This document shows, one piece after another, positions 3,466 to 36,837 of a DNA stretch of 64,000 nucleotides. Location of the stretch: IMG/VR virus record IMGVR_UViG_2617271113_000004, positions 127,053 to 191,052 of that record; one strand, written 5' to 3'. The stretch comes from a virus (taxonomy: Duplodnaviria; Caudoviricetes). Each line of letters begins with the position of its first letter. Position 1 is the first letter of the stretch. A program made the position numbers and the translations under genes. The notes below the pieces were generated by a model. It ran no database searches and had not been told where the DNA came from. It saw only the letters and a program-made list of their open reading frames with translations.

Positions 3466-3874
3466 GTCGTTCTACTTCATAATTCATAGATGATTAACAT
3501 ATAACTCATTGTTCACTATTGAACATACTTACAATTTATCTATCAGTTAATTCGCCTTATGTAATATCTAATAGCTCAAATCCTATTTAATAATTCGTTC
3601 TATGTAAGATGTCAACCTATGAATTATTCCATAGATTATGAAGTAGTTACCTGATAGATCGAGCTATTTCATAACTAATAATTAATAGTCTATTCAATAG
3701 TTAGCTATATATCATATTTAATAACTCGAACTCTGAGATAATCTATTAATAACCTATTCCCCAAGTCGTTCTATGTCATATTTAATAGAATGTAGTCTAT
3801 GAGTGATATCGCTCTATCTCATAACTGATAGTTCATTGCCTATGAAGTTGGCTGCTCTATCTAATAACTAATAG
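3466..3874. repeat. degenerate ~21-bp repeat array, consensus about GCTCTATCTCATAACTAATAG
   Basis: copies near 3466, 3661, 3703, 3765, 3811, 3854 in the divergent intergenic region. Confidence 0.65.
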
Positions 3875-33152: not shown

Positions 33153-33359
33153 ATGTCACAACATAAAGTGAAATTTATAATAGCACCAGGTGGAGAAATT
33201 AATATGGAAGTATTGAATGGTGAAGGTGAATCTTGTGTGGAAGCAACAAAAGATTTAGAAGTATCATTAGCTAATGCTGGTAGCAAGACAGATGAAGGTA
33301 AGAAGCCTGAGTATTATGAAGGCGGCGGGGGTATATCTGTATTTAATGATTTAAACTAG
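33153..33359 (+). CDS. DUF2997 protein
   Basis: F.I..G.I.MEV....G.SC..AT..LE..L...KPEYY. Confidence 0.82.
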   Translation: MSQHKVKFIIAPGGEINMEVLNGEGESCVEATKDLEVSLANAGSKTDEGKKPEYYEGGGGISVFNDLN

Positions 33360-33799: not shown

Positions 33800-33814
33800 A
33801 AAAGGGGAAAAGAA

Positions 33815-34138
33815 ATGCAAAACTTAAACACACAAGAAAAAATATATGTAAATTCAGAAATTGAAAAAAGAGGTAAAAGCATCCTACTAAGTTATTTGCT
33901 ACTAATATTTTTGGGACCCTTAGGTATTCATCGTTTTTACTTAGGTCGAGTAGGAACTGCAATAACATTGTTGTCGCTATTTTTAATTGGTCTAATAACT
34001 TCTTGGTTGTTAATAGGTTTTATTCCATTAGCTGTTGTAGGGGTATGGATTCTCGTTGATTTATTCTTAGTGCCTGGTATTGTCCGTACATTAAATGAAA
34101 AATTAGAACAACAAATTATAAAAGAACTAAAAGGTTAG
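33815..34138 (+). CDS. TM2 domain membrane protein
   Basis: KS...YLL..FLG.LGIHRFYLG, W..VDLF..P. Confidence 0.9.
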   Translation: MQNLNTQEKIYVNSEIEKRGKSILLSYLLLIFLGPLGIHRFYLGRVGTAITLLSLFLIGLITSWLLIGFIPLAVVGVWILVDLFLVPGIVRTLNEKLEQQIIKELKG

Positions 34139-34286
34139 TGAATAGGGATCCAGGCTATCTGGAGTTCCCTATTGGGTAAATAAGTTTTCTTGTTTATCCA
34201 ATAGGGAATGGTTGACTTTTGCTCTTTCAAACTAACCCTACAAATAGTAAGAAAGAGTAGCAGAAACAACTGCTAGAACAAATATA

Positions 34287-34406
34287 GCAATAGTGACGGA
34301 ATAAGTAGACGTTAGGCACTCCCTTAATGAGGCTCGCTAAGGTGAAAGGAAGAAGCTTGGGTTGGATGACCTTCACCATGTAAGGTGTAAATCCTTACCT
34401 ATTGCA
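34287..34406 (+). ncRNA. tRNA-like RNA (class II/Leu-like D arm, enlarged variable arm, atypical T loop)
   Basis: acceptor GCAATAG/CTATTGC+A; D arm ACG-GAATAAGTAGA-CGT; T arm GTAAGG-TGTAAAT-CCTTAC. Confidence 0.65.
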
Positions 34407-34431
34407 ATTTAAAAAAGGAGGGAATAGATGG

Positions 34432-34689
34432 GTGGATCATTCTTTTAGCCATACATTTTATTATTGCTTTAAAAAAGAGTTGAAAATGGCTATTGATCAT
34501 CAAACAGAACAGCCCTGTGACTGTTTCGGGCAAGTAACCATCAATTGTGATGAGCAAATACCTGAAGATAAGCTACAACTATGGCATAAATTTAAACTGC
34601 CACTTCACAGACTTGATTTAACAATGGAAGATCTTAAGCATGTAATACCAATCTCAAAAGAAGAGTATGAAAACAATCAGTTATTTTGA
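34432..34689 (+). CDS. hypothetical protein
   Basis: GGAGGG RBS, in-frame GTG; ends NQLF. Confidence 0.55.
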   Translation: MDHSFSHTFYYCFKKELKMAIDHQTEQPCDCFGQVTINCDEQIPEDKLQLWHKFKLPLHRLDLTMEDLKHVIPISKEEYENNQLF

Positions 34690-34710
34690 CAAATAGCTCT
34701 ATTTATTTAG

Positions 34711-34792
34711 AGCGTAGAGCTGAAAAATAATATATAAAAGGATGGTGAAACACCCCTGACACCGGTAGTTTCAGCATATTCAGCTCTACGCT
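34711..34792 (+). promoter_or_regulatory. structured leader upstream of thyX-like gene
   Basis: perfect 14-bp IR AGCGTAGAGCTGAA/TTCAGCTCTACGCT enclosing smaller hairpins. Confidence 0.5.
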
Positions 34793-34818
34793 GTAAGTTT
34801 AATAAGCTACATAGGAGG

Positions 34819-36441
34819 ATGGAAATGTCTAACACAAAAGAAAAGCAAACAGAAGAAACGTCTGAAGAAGTAAAAACAAATAAGGAGAAAAGTTCAGATG
34901 GGAAAAACAAATCATCAAAGCAAACTACTATTAGTGCAAAGAAAAACTCCAAAACGAGCACTAAAGAACAGAAACAACGAGACCTATCACCTTTCATTAG
35001 CAACGTGGATGGAAACGTTTATGCCATTACGAACTTACCAGAAGAATTTATTGCAACACTATTCGCATGGGTATCCCGTTCACCTAAATCATTCAAGGAA
35101 AATTTAAGCAAGGCATTAGATGAATTTCAAATCGAGGCATCTACTCACGATATTTTTAAAGGGCTAAATAAGAAAGCGAAAGATTTCCATGAAAAATGGA
35201 CAGTTGGTTATGGACACTCCTCAGTTGCAGAACACGCTGTAGCGCACGTTGGCATTGAAAAAGTATCTCGGTTAATTAGTGCGGAGTTAGAATTAAGTAA
35301 CACATTCTATAGTATTACGGAATACAGTCAACGCTATCAAAAGCCACAAAGAGGGGATTGGTATAATCCATTTGAAAAAAGTTCAGAACTGCATACTGAC
35401 TTCGAGGACTATATGAACGAGTCTTACGATGCATTCGAAACTCTCATTAAAGGTGTTTATAACCATTTAAAGAAGAAAGATAAAGACCTGCTATCTCCTC
35501 AATCAGGAAAACAATCTGATAATGAAAAATTAAAGTTGGCTTTTGAAGATGCAAGATATGTATTACCACTTGCTATGTATACACAGTTAGGTATGAGTGC
35601 AAATGGGAGAGCATGGAGGGATGGTCTGGCCACATTAGAAACCAGCAATTACCCCGAATCATTAAAACTGAAGAATGATCTAAAAACAGAAATTTCTAAA
35701 GTGTTGCCAGTTCTTTTAAAATATGCTGATGCATCGCCTTATCAACTTGGAGTTAAAAAACATATACAACAAACTTACCAGGATATTATTACTCCAGTAT
35801 CTCATGAACCTGAAGTAAGTCTTACTGGTTTAATTGACACAGAGGATTCATTGATTAAGGAAATTCTAACTACTCACTATGTTCAACATTCCTGTGTCCC
35901 TTATTCTGTAGCAGTTGGACGTGTTCTGGAAATGACTGGTGAGCAAAGAATAAAAGCCATGAAAGGCATTTTATTTAGAATGACTCACTTTGATAATCCT
36001 CCAGAAGCATTTAAAAGAGTCAAATATAACGCTGATTTGTTAGTTTCAGAGGCGAACTGGCATCAATTGCTTCGTCATAATCGTAAATCAAATTTTATTT
36101 ATAGTGATCCGACACCAATACATGGATTCATAATACCCCCCAGAATTAAGGAAGCAGGGTTATCCTATATTTTAGAGGGTATGCACAAGAAATCAATGGA
36201 GATCTTTCATAAGGTTCATGAGTCTGATATCAATAATAAGTCTCTAGCCGACTATGCTGTTTTAAACGCCCATAAAAGGCGAGTATTAGCTAATTTTGAT
36301 TTATGGGAGGCTTACCACCTTATTAATCTTAGAACCTCTGAGGAAGCACAATGGGATATTAAGCGTACGTTTAATACATTATATAACTTGATTGAACAAT
36401 ACCATCCTACCTTAATTAGTGCTGCAAAAAGAAGAAAATAA
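34819..36441 (+). CDS. thyX: FAD-dependent thymidylate synthase-like protein, tandem ThyX domains
   Basis: GH.SVAEH, SR, E.SQRY, ARYVLP, QLLRH.R, LR....AQW.I. Confidence 0.78.
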   Translation: MEMSNTKEKQTEETSEEVKTNKEKSSDGKNKSSKQTTISAKKNSKTSTKEQKQRDLSPFISNVDGNVYAITNLPEEFIATLFAWVSRSPKSFKENLSKALDEFQIEASTHDIFKGLNKKAKDFHEKWTVGYGHSSVAEHAVAHVGIEKVSRLISAELELSNTFYSITEYSQRYQKPQRGDWYNPFEKSSELHTDFEDYMNESYDAFETLIKGVYNHLKKKDKDLLSPQSGKQSDNEKLKLAFEDARYVLPLAMYTQLGMSANGRAWRDGLATLETSNYPESLKLKNDLKTEISKVLPVLLKYADASPYQLGVKKHIQQTYQDIITPVSHEPEVSLTGLIDTEDSLIKEILTTHYVQHSCVPYSVAVGRVLEMTGEQRIKAMKGILFRMTHFDNPPEAFKRVKYNADLLVSEANWHQLLRHNRKSNFIYSDPTPIHGFIIPPRIKEAGLSYILEGMHKKSMEIFHKVHESDINNKSLADYAVLNAHKRRVLANFDLWEAYHLINLRTSEEAQWDIKRTFNTLYNLIEQYHPTLISAAKRRK

Positions 36442-36489: not shown

Positions 36490-36837
36490 ATGAAAAAAAG
36501 GGAAGTAAAAGTTGGCCAAATATTGTTTGTAGCTTCTAATATCGCTTTTAGCACTTCTAAGCCAAGTTTAAGCAATTATGTAGTTACAAAAGTTAACACT
36601 AGAAGTTTTTATGCCCATCCTACTGATGGAGATCACATTGTTAGATTTGATAAAAGGACAATGAGATCAACCTCTCATTCCTTTGAGGTGCATCAAGCAT
36701 ATTTTAGTGAAAAAGAATATAGAGATCTAGTTGATCTGTACGAAAAGAAGAATTCTTTAAGAAAAGAAATCATCGAATCAGTAAAAGACTTAGAACTAAA
36801 TAAGCTAGAAGAGATTACAGCAATCATTCAAAAATAA
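36490..36837 (+). CDS. hypothetical protein
   Basis: AAGGAG RBS. Confidence 0.65.
   Translation: MKKREVKVGQILFVASNIAFSTSKPSLSNYVVTKVNTRSFYAHPTDGDHIVRFDKRTMRSTSHSFEVHQAYFSEKEYRDLVDLYEKKNSLRKEIIESVKDLELNKLEEITAIIQK

What the first reader, a model, noticed from the sequence alone, without database searches (positions are those of the whole stretch)
34287..34406. Unannotated 120-nt tRNA-like RNA with non-canonical arms
Seen: 7-bp acceptor stem, tRNA-Leu-like D arm (GGAATAAGTAGAC, lacking the D-loop GG), a bulged stem closing a 7-nt loop CCTTAAT (centre TTA), a long extra helix GGTGAA(A)GG...CCTTCACC, a 6-bp T stem with loop TGTAAAT, and no encoded CCA. Every arm still pairs while invariant bases are changed. 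Inference: a maintained tRNA mimic (nuclease or synthetase decoy, RNase P/Z processing signal) rather than decay. The UUA loop centre would read UAA, but missing U33 argues against decoding.
Basis: partly seen in the sequence, partly recalled or inferred. Interest (0 to 1): 0.75.

Follow-up and report, generated by a model that had tools for sequence, protein, structure and literature searches.

The report
Degenerate tRNA-like RNA behind conserved leader
A 120-base cloverleaf that no tRNA finder accepts is the diverged copy of a tRNA-derived, non-decoding RNA element that sits behind a conserved structured leader in a small group of roughly 200-kb phage-plasmids of Bacillus relatives, and it most likely serves as a cutting or stabilising signal in a longer transcript.

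Summary
The cloverleaf at 34287-34406 (+) is there as described, but alone it is not beyond chance. Its fold is no more stable than shuffles (z -1.03), and ARAGORN and Rfam find nothing.

Its context makes it real. The window is the replication module of a 191-kb phage-like element. Relatives are a 194.7-kb Oceanobacillus profundus contig and ~200-kb Bacillus licheniformis, B. paralicheniformis and B. halotolerans plasmids. In each, the same spot between a DUF2997 gene and thyX holds:
- a long hairpin;
- an ~85-nt leader, single-copy where whole records were searched, whose two-part stem pairs in all six sequences, 4 of 11 pairs changed on both sides;
- a tRNA-like cloverleaf, some copies with canonical D and T arms.

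All copies have an oversized extra arm. The anticodon arm differs in every lineage.

For selection: between two Bacillus plasmids the tRNA-like part is 93.5% identical, against 40-81% in its flanks.

Against: the B. licheniformis copies lack 47 nt including the T arm, more distant relatives lack the leader and tRNA-like element, and a model built from relatives does not find the window's copy.

Best reading (about 40%): a non-decoding RNase P/RNase Z processing or stabilising handle. No expression data could be obtained.

The parts
34164..34209 (+). Long hairpin (20-bp stem, 6-nt loop) that ends a few bases before the leader. A hairpin of different sequence occupies the same place in every relative.
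   Evidence: 20 pairs. Counterparts appear in the L002 and L032 alignments. No T-run follows it, so it is not a typical intrinsic terminator.
34205..34288 (+). Conserved structured leader. It comprises an invariant GTTGACTTT; a two-part stem P1 (34221-34227 with 34252-34258, and 34231-34234 with 34245-34248) closing the loop ACCCTACAAA; a hairpin P2 (34259-34263 with 34270-34274); and an A-rich single-stranded tail that runs into the cloverleaf.
   Evidence: It is 82% identical over 89 nt to the O. profundus contig. In the 6-sequence alignment A4 mean column identity is 81%. P1 has 11 pairs, all paired in all 6 sequences, and 4 of them changed on both sides; the covariation score exceeds 500 of 500 shuffles. 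The covariance model R1 gives one significant hit in the whole 191-kb own record (89.1 bits; next best 19.8 bits, E 0.42) and one in the whole O. profundus contig (95.3 bits).
34287..34406 (+). The tRNA-like cloverleaf of the finding. Acceptor 34287-34293/34399-34405; D arm 34296-34312; anticodon-like arm 34315-34334 (loop 34322-34328); oversized extra arm 34341-34377; T arm 34380-34398 (6-bp stem); discriminator A at 34406; no CCA.
   Evidence: The T arm plus 3' acceptor strand matches the O. profundus element at 17 of 27 positions, reached by 2 of 2000 shuffles. The 5' half shows no significant similarity (1188 of 2000 shuffles). G-U pairs in the stems fit the + strand only.
34417..34689 (+). 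Shine-Dalgarno GGAGGG (34417-34422) and a small ORF (GTG 34432 to stop 34689, 85 aa) directly behind the cloverleaf. A weakly similar 78-aa ORF follows the element in the Bacillus plasmids. The ORF is absent in O. profundus.
   Evidence: BLASTP of the window ORF against L027 1967-2203 gives 24% identity and E 0.001 over nearly full length. No Pfam family matches.

Best explanation
The 120-nt element is the diverged copy, in this genome, of a tRNA-derived but non-decoding cloverleaf. It forms one unit with an upstream conserved structured leader. The unit sits in the transcribed spacer of the replication/nucleotide-metabolism module, between DUF2997 and thyX, in a small clade of ~190-205-kb Bacillaceae phage-plasmids.

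What is kept across lineages is the tRNA 'top half' plus the D arm: a 7-bp acceptor, U8, the D arm and the T arm abutting the acceptor. The anticodon arm is free to change and the extra arm is oversized.

Inferred mechanism:
1. The module is transcribed as part of a longer + strand RNA.
2. The host's tRNA end-processing enzymes read the cloverleaf as a pre-tRNA.
3. RNase P cuts at its first base. This releases the ~85-nt leader RNA with a defined 3' end.
4. RNase Z cuts after the discriminator, since the element is CCA-less. This sets the 5' end of the downstream small-ORF or thyX message.

Shown: the structure, synteny, homology, leader covariation and local conservation. Inferred: transcription, both cleavages and any effect on expression.
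For: (1) The same order recurs in three lineages: hairpin, leader, tRNA-like element, then an SD and small ORF (window, Bacillus plasmids) or the thyX 5' element (O. profundus). The three are the window, O. profundus L002, and the B. licheniformis / B. paralicheniformis / B. halotolerans plasmids.

(2) Relatives keep canonical tRNA motifs. B. halotolerans has a D arm GCTC-AATTGGCTA-GAGC and a T arm GCAGT-TTCGAAA-GCTGC. O. profundus has a T arm GCAGG-TTCAAAT-CCTGC. The Bacillus-type 5' part hits a genuine tRNA-Arg gene in 1 of 401 Bacillales genomes at E 1.6e-4.

(3) Homology of the ends. O. profundus against B. halotolerans: 18 of 29 positions at the 5' end (6 of 2000 shuffles as good) and 18 of 25 at the 3' end (0 of 2000). 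Window against O. profundus at the 3' end: 17 of 27 (2 of 2000).

(4) Acceptor stems differ at 5 of 7 pairs among lineages and still pair: 7/7, 6/7 and 7/7.

(5) Purifying selection in the one testable pair. B. paralicheniformis against B. halotolerans: tRNA-like part 116 of 124 identical (93.5%), leader 75.3%, upstream 81.4%, spacer to the start codon 40%, ORF start 70.9%.

(6) The anticodon arm is not conserved, so what is selected is the part that end-processing enzymes read.

(7) No + strand sigma-70-like promoter lies in the spacer in 3 of 3 lineages scanned, which fits read-through from upstream genes. All neighbouring genes are on the + strand.

(8) No CCA is encoded in any lineage. As I recall, B. 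subtilis RNase Z acts on CCA-less precursors; this was not checked here.

(9) There is precedent for non-canonical cloverleaves as RNase P/Z signals for mRNA ends: the plant mitochondrial t-elements (PMC1920247, abstract and passages read).
Against: - No expression or end-mapping data exist.
- The window's cloverleaf is not more stable than shuffles.
- Its T loop (TGTAAAT) and D loop lack the bases of the canonical elbow, and its acceptor plus T stack is 13 bp (7+6), not 12. Recognition by RNase P/Z is therefore uncertain for this very copy.
- The model R2, built from three relatives, does not find the window's element. The best window hit lies elsewhere (12.3 bits, E 0.65).
- The 5' half of the window element has no significant similarity to relatives.
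- The B. licheniformis copies lost 47 nt including the T arm and yet persist in at least 3 plasmids and 1 viral contig.
- The leader and tRNA-like element are not detected in the B. thuringiensis and Paenibacillus loci. One Paenibacillus has only 62 nt between DUF2997 and thyX.
- In O. profundus an 84-nt structured insert separates the leader from the cloverleaf, so 'leader 3' end = RNase P site' does not hold there.
Confidence: 0.4

Rival explanations
1. Decaying pseudo-tRNA. A real tRNA gene once stood behind the leader, and each lineage now carries a differently eroded relic with no function of its own. Only the leader is functional.
For: - ARAGORN calls none of the copies a tRNA: 0 genes in the window and in L002, L026-L034. 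Rfam reports no tRNA hit in the small-stretch scans at E<=10.
- The fold is not beyond shuffles.
- The B. licheniformis copies carry a 47-nt deletion, and the B. paralicheniformis T stem pairs at 3 of 5 positions.
- Window and O. profundus are not alignable by BLAST across the cloverleaf, while the leader is 82% identical.
- The module is absent from more distant relatives.
- The two genuine tRNAs of these genomes are conserved at 78-88%.
Against: - Genomes this diverged (65-77% nt identity in genes) should have erased a neutral relic. Yet acceptor, D, extra and T stems pair almost perfectly, with different sequences, in three lineages.
- The tRNA-like part is the most conserved stretch between two Bacillus plasmids: 93.5% against 40-81%.
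Confidence: 0.22
2. Trans-acting tRNA mimic. The processed cloverleaf is itself the product. It binds or titrates a host or phage factor that recognises the tRNA shape, such as a tRNA-targeting defence nuclease, CCA-adding enzyme, synthetase or EF-Tu.
For: - The tRNA top half and elbow motifs are kept in relatives.
- The tRNA-like part is strongly conserved between two Bacillus plasmids.
- There is precedent for tRNA-like non-coding RNAs that tRNA enzymes act on: bacterial YrlA (PMC4201824, abstract read).
Against: - The anticodon arm differs in all lineages, so anticodon nucleases and anticodon-reading synthetases are unlikely targets.
- The discriminator base differs: A, G and T.
- The window copy has lost the canonical elbow bases.
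- No partner gene is found in the element: no TROVE, RtcB or CCA-adding enzyme.
- The B. licheniformis copies lack the T arm.
Confidence: 0.18
3. Cis-acting 5' UTR structure. The uncut leader plus cloverleaf stays on the mRNA and protects it from 5' exonuclease, or tunes translation of the small ORF whose SD lies 10-20 nt downstream.
For: - A strong SD and a start codon lie directly after the element in the window and the Bacillus plasmids.
- The small ORFs are weakly similar, E 0.001.
- As I recall, stable 5' structures are known stabilisers in Bacillus; this was not checked here.
Against: - The O. profundus copy has no small ORF behind it.
- Nothing explains why a stabiliser should keep tRNA geometry, U8 and D/T motifs.
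- The spacer to the start codon is the least conserved part, at 40%.
Confidence: 0.15
4. A working, unusual tRNA: tRNA-Leu(UAA)-like, or a UAA suppressor with anticodon UUA.
For: - The D arm resembles tRNA-Leu at 13-14 of 19 positions.
- The loop holds CTTAA.
- A discriminator A and a long extra arm fit class II tRNAs.
- The genome is AT-rich, 30-36% GC.
Against: - C instead of U at position 33, a bulged anticodon stem, a 37-nt extra arm, a T loop lacking the conserved bases, and a 7+6 stack.
- It is not called by ARAGORN, nor at relaxed settings.
- The homologs have no 7-nt anticodon loop at all.
- Genes read normally with the standard code: 88 ORFs of 90 aa or more were listed in the window under table 11, most of them on the + strand. 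No suppressor is needed.
Confidence: 0.03

Closest known systems
t-elements of plant mitochondria (tRNA-like processing signals; PMC1920247, abstract and passages read)
   Same: Both are non-canonical cloverleaves embedded in longer transcripts next to protein genes. They keep the acceptor and T-arm features and are not used for decoding. The t-elements are proposed, and partly shown, to direct RNase P and RNase Z cuts that create mRNA 5' and 3' ends.
   Different: The t-elements are organellar and were found through the conserved T-arm motif, which the window's copy has lost. No cleavage is shown here. This element is tied to a conserved structured leader and occurs in bacterial phage-plasmids.
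tRNA-Other of Bacillus cereus (PMC3399842, abstract read)
   Same: [quoted passage not shown]
   Different: tRNA-Other is chromosomal, flanks a genomic island and is iron-regulated. No sequence comparison with tRNA-Other was made. It has no conserved leader of this kind.
Bacterial Y RNA YrlA (PMC4201824, abstract read)
   Same: Both have a tRNA-like domain with acceptor, D and T arms and a replaced anticodon region. YrlA is a substrate of tRNA enzymes and is also found in phages.
   Different: YrlA is encoded next to Ro60 and binds it. This element has no TROVE gene (0 matches), no RtcB and no Rfam match.
Class II tRNAs, tRNA-Sec and allo-tRNAs (PMC5389517, search listing and abstract start only)
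   Same: Both have a long extra arm. The window's acceptor + T stack of 13 bp departs from the canonical 12, as tRNA-Sec does (recalled).
   Different: Here the split is 7+6. The abstract gives 8/4 and 9/3 for the allo-tRNAs; the tRNA-Sec splits are recalled only. There is no usable anticodon loop. The extra arm is far longer (27-63 nt from stem to stem), and no tRNA finder calls it.
MALAT1-mascRNA and phage T4 small stable RNAs C and D (both recalled, not looked up here)
   Same: In both, a tRNA-like structure is used as an RNase P/Z handle that defines the end of a neighbouring RNA, or a small tRNA-like RNA of unknown role sits in a phage.
   Different: No sequence or family relation is known, and the comparison rests on memory only.

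Membership tests
Canonical tRNA (ARAGORN; Rfam RF00005) | Recognised by tRNA gene finders or covariance models | tested here: not met
   ARAGORN finds 0 genes in the window. Relaxed ARAGORN settings give no tRNA spanning the element. Rfam gives 0 matches at gathering score and no tRNA among the 5 matches at E<=10 in 34100-34600.
Canonical tRNA (ARAGORN; Rfam RF00005) | 7-nt anticodon loop with U33 on a regular 5-bp stem | tested here: not met
   The loop is CCTTAAT with C at position 33. The stem is 3+3 bp with a bulged A. Homologs have 5-nt or 22-28-nt loops.
Canonical tRNA (ARAGORN; Rfam RF00005) | Elbow bases (D-loop GG; T loop TTCRANY) and a 7+5 acceptor/T stack | tested here: not met
   The window's D loop is GAATAAGTAGA with one G kept, its T loop is TGTAAAT and its T stem is 6 bp. 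These features are met in O. profundus and B. halotolerans.
Canonical tRNA (ARAGORN; Rfam RF00005) | CCA addition and aminoacylation | not testable with these tools
   No CCA is encoded. No RNA run was listed.
tmRNA | tRNA-like domain plus tag reading frame, recognised by ARAGORN or Rfam RF00023 | tested here: not met
   ARAGORN finds 0 tmRNAs. The only trace is an 18-nt local hit on the T arm of the O. profundus copy, at 10.5 bits against a gathering score of 47.
YrlA / bacterial Y RNA | Encoded near a Ro60 (TROVE) gene | tested here: not met
   PF05731 has 0 matches in the 191-kb record, and the control genomes ring. RtcB also has 0 matches.
YrlA / bacterial Y RNA | Match to an Rfam family (that Rfam holds a YrlA model is recalled, not checked) | tested here: not met
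   No Rfam family matches at gathering score in the window or in 7 related loci.
tRNA-like processing signal (t-element type) | Non-canonical cloverleaf with acceptor and T arm, inside a transcript next to a coding gene | tested here: met
   The arms are shown. The SD and ORF start 10-26 nt downstream. No + strand promoter is predicted in the spacer.
tRNA-like processing signal (t-element type) | Transcript ends coincide with the cloverleaf borders; cleavage by RNase P and RNase Z | not testable with these tools
   No sequencing run was listed for the stretch.
The leader + tRNA-like module of Bacillaceae phage-plasmids (defined here) | Conserved leader with two-part stem P1 directly upstream | tested here: met
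   R1 scores 89.1 bits at 34205-34288. P1 pairs in 6 of 6 sequences.
The leader + tRNA-like module of Bacillaceae phage-plasmids (defined here) | Sequence homology of the cloverleaf to the other members | tested here: inconclusive
   The 3' part is similar to O. profundus at 17 of 27 positions (2 of 2000 shuffles). The 5' part is not (1188 of 2000). The model R2 does not find it.

The most novel reading that the evidence does not exclude
A bacterial and phage counterpart of the plant-mitochondrial t-element or MALAT1-mascRNA arrangement. In this reading a tRNA-shaped handle is kept solely so that host RNase P and RNase Z cut a polycistronic phage-plasmid transcript. The cuts would release a conserved ~85-nt leader as a discrete small RNA with its own sequence-specific function and create the 5' end of the downstream message. 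The leader plus handle would then be a previously undescribed two-part RNA gene of ~200-kb Bacillaceae phage-plasmids.
Probability: 0.3. Interest if true: 0.65.

Novelty: new variant of a known kind. Interest (0 to 1): 0.45.

Why it matters
tRNA-shaped RNAs that do not decode are known from plant mitochondria, animal nuclei and a few bacteria. In phages they are mostly dismissed as pseudo-tRNAs.

Here the tRNA shape survives deep divergence while the anticodon arm drifts. It is also welded to a leader that is more conserved than the neighbouring proteins. Together these make a testable case that large temperate Bacillus elements use the host's tRNA-processing machinery to cut their own transcripts or to make a small RNA.

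The work also gives two unannotated, covariation-supported RNA motifs, the leader and the thyX 5' element, for a poorly studied group of ~200-kb phage-plasmids found in food and soil Bacillus strains.

If the element is only a relic, the result is still useful. It would show that a cloverleaf seen by eye, with unremarkable folding energy, needs comparative support.

Tried and rejected
- **Known RNA families.** The window and 7 related loci gave 0 matches at gathering score. Four small-stretch scans at E<=10 gave only noise: miRNA, snoRNA, lncRNA and similar.
- **More homologs.**
  - The exact-pattern scan of viral contigs for the T arm/acceptor found 0.
  - Scans for the leader and the thyX element found only the O. 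profundus contig.
  - The degenerate leader pattern added one B. licheniformis-type contig.
  - Genome contigs gave only O. profundus.
  - Metagenome contigs gave one hit that is unrelated beyond the 21-mer.
  - BLAST against 246 genomes of the O. profundus family found only that genome, plus two ~25-nt chance hits.
  - BLAST against 401 genomes of its order found only a hit to a genuine tRNA-Arg.
  - The 'phages' collection gave no DNA match.
  - 'plasmids' gave no match with the window or the O. profundus element as query.
- **Expression.** No RNA holder was listed, and no run at all was listed for 33800-35200.
- **Coding on the minus strand.** The 50-aa minus-strand ORF over the element has no similarity to the two minus-strand ORFs at the same place in O. 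profundus. No + strand ORF of 40 aa or more lies in 34139-34401.
- **Repeated promoter or regulatory box.** The leader gives one significant hit in each of the two whole records searched. No sigma-70-like promoter was found behind its TTGAC.
- **Ideas considered by eye and dropped.**
  - A triple-helix (ENE-like) reading of the leader's U-rich and A-rich runs: the U-rich stretch is directly continuous with stem P1.
  - A leader-loop ACCC to extra-arm GGGT pairing: 4 bp only, and absent from the B. halotolerans extra arm.
- **MAFFT alignment of the four cloverleaves.** It misaligned the window copy, so the arms were compared by script.
- **Earlier findings of this scan.** There is nothing for this genome or sequence.
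Full report
**1. Observation**

The arms are:
- a perfect 7-bp acceptor stem, GCAATAG/CTATTGC, followed by T at position 8;
- a 3-bp D stem with an 11-nt loop;
- a 3+3-bp stem with a bulged A that closes the loop CCTTAAT;
- an extra arm, GGTGAA(A)GG...CCTTCACC;
- a 6-bp T stem with the loop TGTAAAT that abuts the acceptor strand;
- a discriminator A and no CCA.

The D-arm region matches real Bacillales tRNA-Leu genes at 13 of 19 positions (UAA) and 14 of 19 (UAG).

Taken alone this is not beyond chance:
- The fold energy has z -1.03, and 27 of 200 shuffles fold at least as well. The other strand gives z -1.37.
- A loose tRNA 'top half' descriptor is met at 0.12% of places, both in random sequence (240 of 200,000) and in the genome (64 of 54,532).
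- A stricter descriptor found 7 hits in the genome against a mean of 4.2 in 20 shuffles. It did not include this element, because its T stem has 6 pairs.
- ARAGORN finds nothing in the window. Rfam finds nothing at gathering score and no tRNA at E<=10.

**2. Where it lies**

- The window is bases 127053-191052 of a 191,052-base virus record.
- The record has a large terminase (PF03237, over its cut-off) and a weak HK97-type capsid hit.
- It carries two genuine tRNAs, Pro and Asn, elsewhere.
- The window holds the replication module: helicases, DNA polymerase, a processivity factor, a recombinase, a primase and a replication initiator.
- Local gene order, all on the + strand:
  1. AAA ATPase
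  2. DUF1257
  3. DUF2997 (33153-33359)
  4. two small ORFs, the second with a TM2 domain (33815-34138)
  5. a 20-bp hairpin (34164-34209)
  6. a leader
  7. the cloverleaf
  8. an SD and an 85-aa ORF (34432-34689)
  9. a second structured element
  10. thyX (34819-36441)
  11. a ProQ-C-like protein
  12. a UvrD helicase
  13. a primase

**3. Relatives**

- One viral contig encodes a ThyX 55% identical. It is a 194,705-base contig titled Oceanobacillus profundus DSM 18246. It is collinear with the record over its whole length: 103 BLAST segments, mostly 65-77% identical.
- The plasmid collection holds 8 further relatives of 200-260 kb: B. licheniformis x3, B. paralicheniformis, B. halotolerans, B. 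thuringiensis and Paenibacillus x2.
- All 8 share the order AAA ATPase - DUF1257 - DUF2997 - [variable island] - thyX - helicase.
- The group therefore looks like phage-plasmids.
- No DNA match exists in the GenBank phage collection.

**4. The leader**

- The best-conserved non-coding stretch is not the cloverleaf. It is the ~85 nt before it, which is 82% identical over 89 nt to O. profundus.
- It is also recognisable in the B. licheniformis, B. paralicheniformis and B. halotolerans plasmids and in one more viral contig of the B. licheniformis type.
- In the 6-sequence alignment a two-part stem of 11 pairs is paired in all 6 sequences, with 4 pairs changed on both sides. A second hairpin is 83% paired. 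The covariation score exceeds all 500 shuffles and all slid controls.
- G-U pairs place the RNA on the + strand.
- A covariance model of the leader finds exactly one significant copy in the whole own record and one in the whole O. profundus contig. It finds none in the stretches fetched around thyX in B. thuringiensis and the two Paenibacillus plasmids.
- No sigma-70-like promoter is predicted on the + strand in this spacer in any of three lineages.

**5. The cloverleaf family**

A tRNA-like element follows the leader in every lineage.
- **O. profundus:** acceptor 6 of 7 pairs, TA at positions 8-9, a D arm with GG, a 5-bp stem with a 5-nt loop, a 6-bp extra arm enclosing 51 nt, a canonical T arm (TTCAAAT loop) and discriminator G.
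- **B. halotolerans:** acceptor 7 of 7, a canonical 4-bp D arm with GG, a 5-bp stem enclosing 22-28 nt, a 6-bp extra arm and a canonical T arm (TTCGAAA loop).
- **B. paralicheniformis:** the same, but its T stem pairs at only 3 of 5 positions.
- **B. licheniformis:** a 47-nt internal deletion removes the extra arm and the T arm.

None of these copies is called by ARAGORN or Rfam.

Evidence of tRNA origin and common descent:
- The Bacillus-type 5' part matches a genuine tRNA-Arg gene in 1 of 401 genomes at E 1.6e-4.
- The ends of the O. profundus and Bacillus elements are similar: 18 of 29 positions (6 of 2000 shuffles as good) and 18 of 25 (0 of 2000).
- The window's T arm plus 3' acceptor strand resembles that of O. 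profundus at 17 of 27 positions (2 of 2000 shuffles). Its 5' half does not.
- Two negative results count against this. A model built from the three relatives does not retrieve the window's copy, and BLAST does not align it.

I therefore read the window's element as a strongly diverged orthologue. That reading rests on place, architecture and the similarity of its 3' end.

**6. Selection or decay?**

For selection:
- The stems pair with different sequences in three lineages. Five of the 7 acceptor pairs differ between lineages.
- Between B. paralicheniformis and B. halotolerans the tRNA-like part is 93.5% identical (116 of 124). The leader is 75.3%, the upstream part 81.4%, the spacer to the start codon 40% and the ORF start 70.9%.

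For decay or dispensability:
- the B. licheniformis deletion;
- the weak B. paralicheniformis T stem;
- the altered elbow bases and 13-bp stack of the window's copy;
- the absence of the module from more distant relatives, one of which has only 62 nt between DUF2997 and thyX.

**7. What it is not**

- **Not a decoding tRNA.** It has C at position 33, the anticodon arm differs in every lineage, and genes read normally in the standard code.
- **Not a tmRNA**.
- **Not a Y RNA of the YrlA type.** The record has no TROVE, RtcB or CCA-adding enzyme gene.
- **Not coding.** No + strand ORF of 40 aa or more lies in 34139-34401, and the minus-strand ORFs are not conserved.

**8. Mechanism**

What is kept is the part of a tRNA that end-processing enzymes measure: the acceptor plus T-arm helix, U8 and the D arm. 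What is free is the part that decoding and most identity rules need. The element lies inside a + strand gene array without its own predicted promoter. It ends without CCA, and a ribosome-binding site follows within 10-20 nt.

The most economical reading is a tRNA-shaped processing handle. RNase P would cut at its first base, freeing the conserved leader RNA. RNase Z would cut after the discriminator, defining the downstream message. The upstream long hairpin could give the leader its 5' end.

All of these steps are inferred. Nothing on transcription or cleavage could be obtained, because no run was listed. I put this reading at about 0.4. The rivals are:
- a relic pseudo-tRNA (0.22);
- a trans-acting tRNA mimic (0.18);
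- an uncut 5' UTR stabiliser (0.15);
- a working odd tRNA (0.03).

**9. Comparison with what is known**

- **Functional parallel:** plant mitochondrial t-elements (PMC1920247, abstract and passages read).
- **Bacillaceae parallel:** the pseudo-tRNA tRNA-Other, which acts as a structural element in a larger RNA (PMC3399842, abstract read).
- **tRNA-mimic parallel:** YrlA (PMC4201824, abstract read). Membership fails for lack of Ro60.
- **Recalled only:** MALAT1-mascRNA, the phage T4 small stable RNAs, and the rule that B. subtilis RNase Z acts on CCA-less precursors.
- **Literature:** four full-text searches listed no paper describing this leader-cloverleaf module or these plasmids' RNAs. I saw only listings and abstract starts for the other papers. 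Supplementary files were not consulted.
- **Annotation:** the plasmid gene tables omit RNA genes, so I cannot say whether the original records annotate the spot.

**10. Verdict**

The element is a real, tRNA-derived, non-decoding member of a small undescribed RNA module in Bacillaceae phage-plasmids. The specific function is open, and the window's own copy is the most degenerate of the family.

It is a new variant of a known kind, the tRNA-like elements within larger transcripts. Interest is moderate.

Noticed in passing
window 34708-34795 (+); L002 ~2494-2584; L027 ~3652-3735; L028 ~3650-3733: A second conserved structured RNA element lies directly upstream of the thyX ribosome-binding site. 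It has a 16-bp outer stem with 6 pairs changed on both sides, and an invariant core, GGTGAA(A/G)CACCCCT, with a 6-bp inner stem. Rfam gives only noise (best 23.5 bits against a gathering score of 64). It is a candidate cis-regulatory element of phage-plasmid thyX. A weaker look-alike precedes the small ORF before thyX in B. thuringiensis.
   Followed up: partly
L002 2262-2345: In O. profundus an 84-nt insert separates the leader from the cloverleaf. It folds into a long irregular hairpin closed by an 8-bp stem (z -2.08; 7 of 200 shuffles fold as well). The window has no counterpart.
   Followed up: partly
window 34359-34371 (inside the extra arm): The loop of the extra arm holds GGGTTGGATGACC. 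MAFFT aligns it with the T arm of genuine tRNA-Leu genes, so it may be the relic of an older T arm. The flanking bases pair at only 2 of 5 positions.
   Followed up: no
L026 2745-3000 (B. thuringiensis plasmid NZ_CP097261): The 613-nt gap between DUF2997 and the next ORF contains a G+C-richer stretch of about 240 nt, followed by a long hairpin. It has no annotated gene, no Rfam match and no leader match. A different non-coding element may occupy the same slot.
   Followed up: no
whole record G000 and relatives: The record is classed as a provirus. Yet it is collinear end to end with a whole 194.7-kb contig and resembles 200-260-kb records deposited as circular or linear plasmids, so the group looks like extrachromosomal phage-plasmids. 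The island between the cloverleaf and thyX varies from 0 to about 10 small ORFs, including a small acid-soluble spore protein gene in B. halotolerans.
   Followed up: partly
window 36490-36837 (+): A protein with a phage ProQ C-terminal-like domain (PF24203, E 1.1e-13) is encoded just downstream of thyX. ProQ-type proteins bind structured RNAs (recalled), so it is a conceivable partner of the leader or cloverleaf. This was not tested.
   Followed up: no
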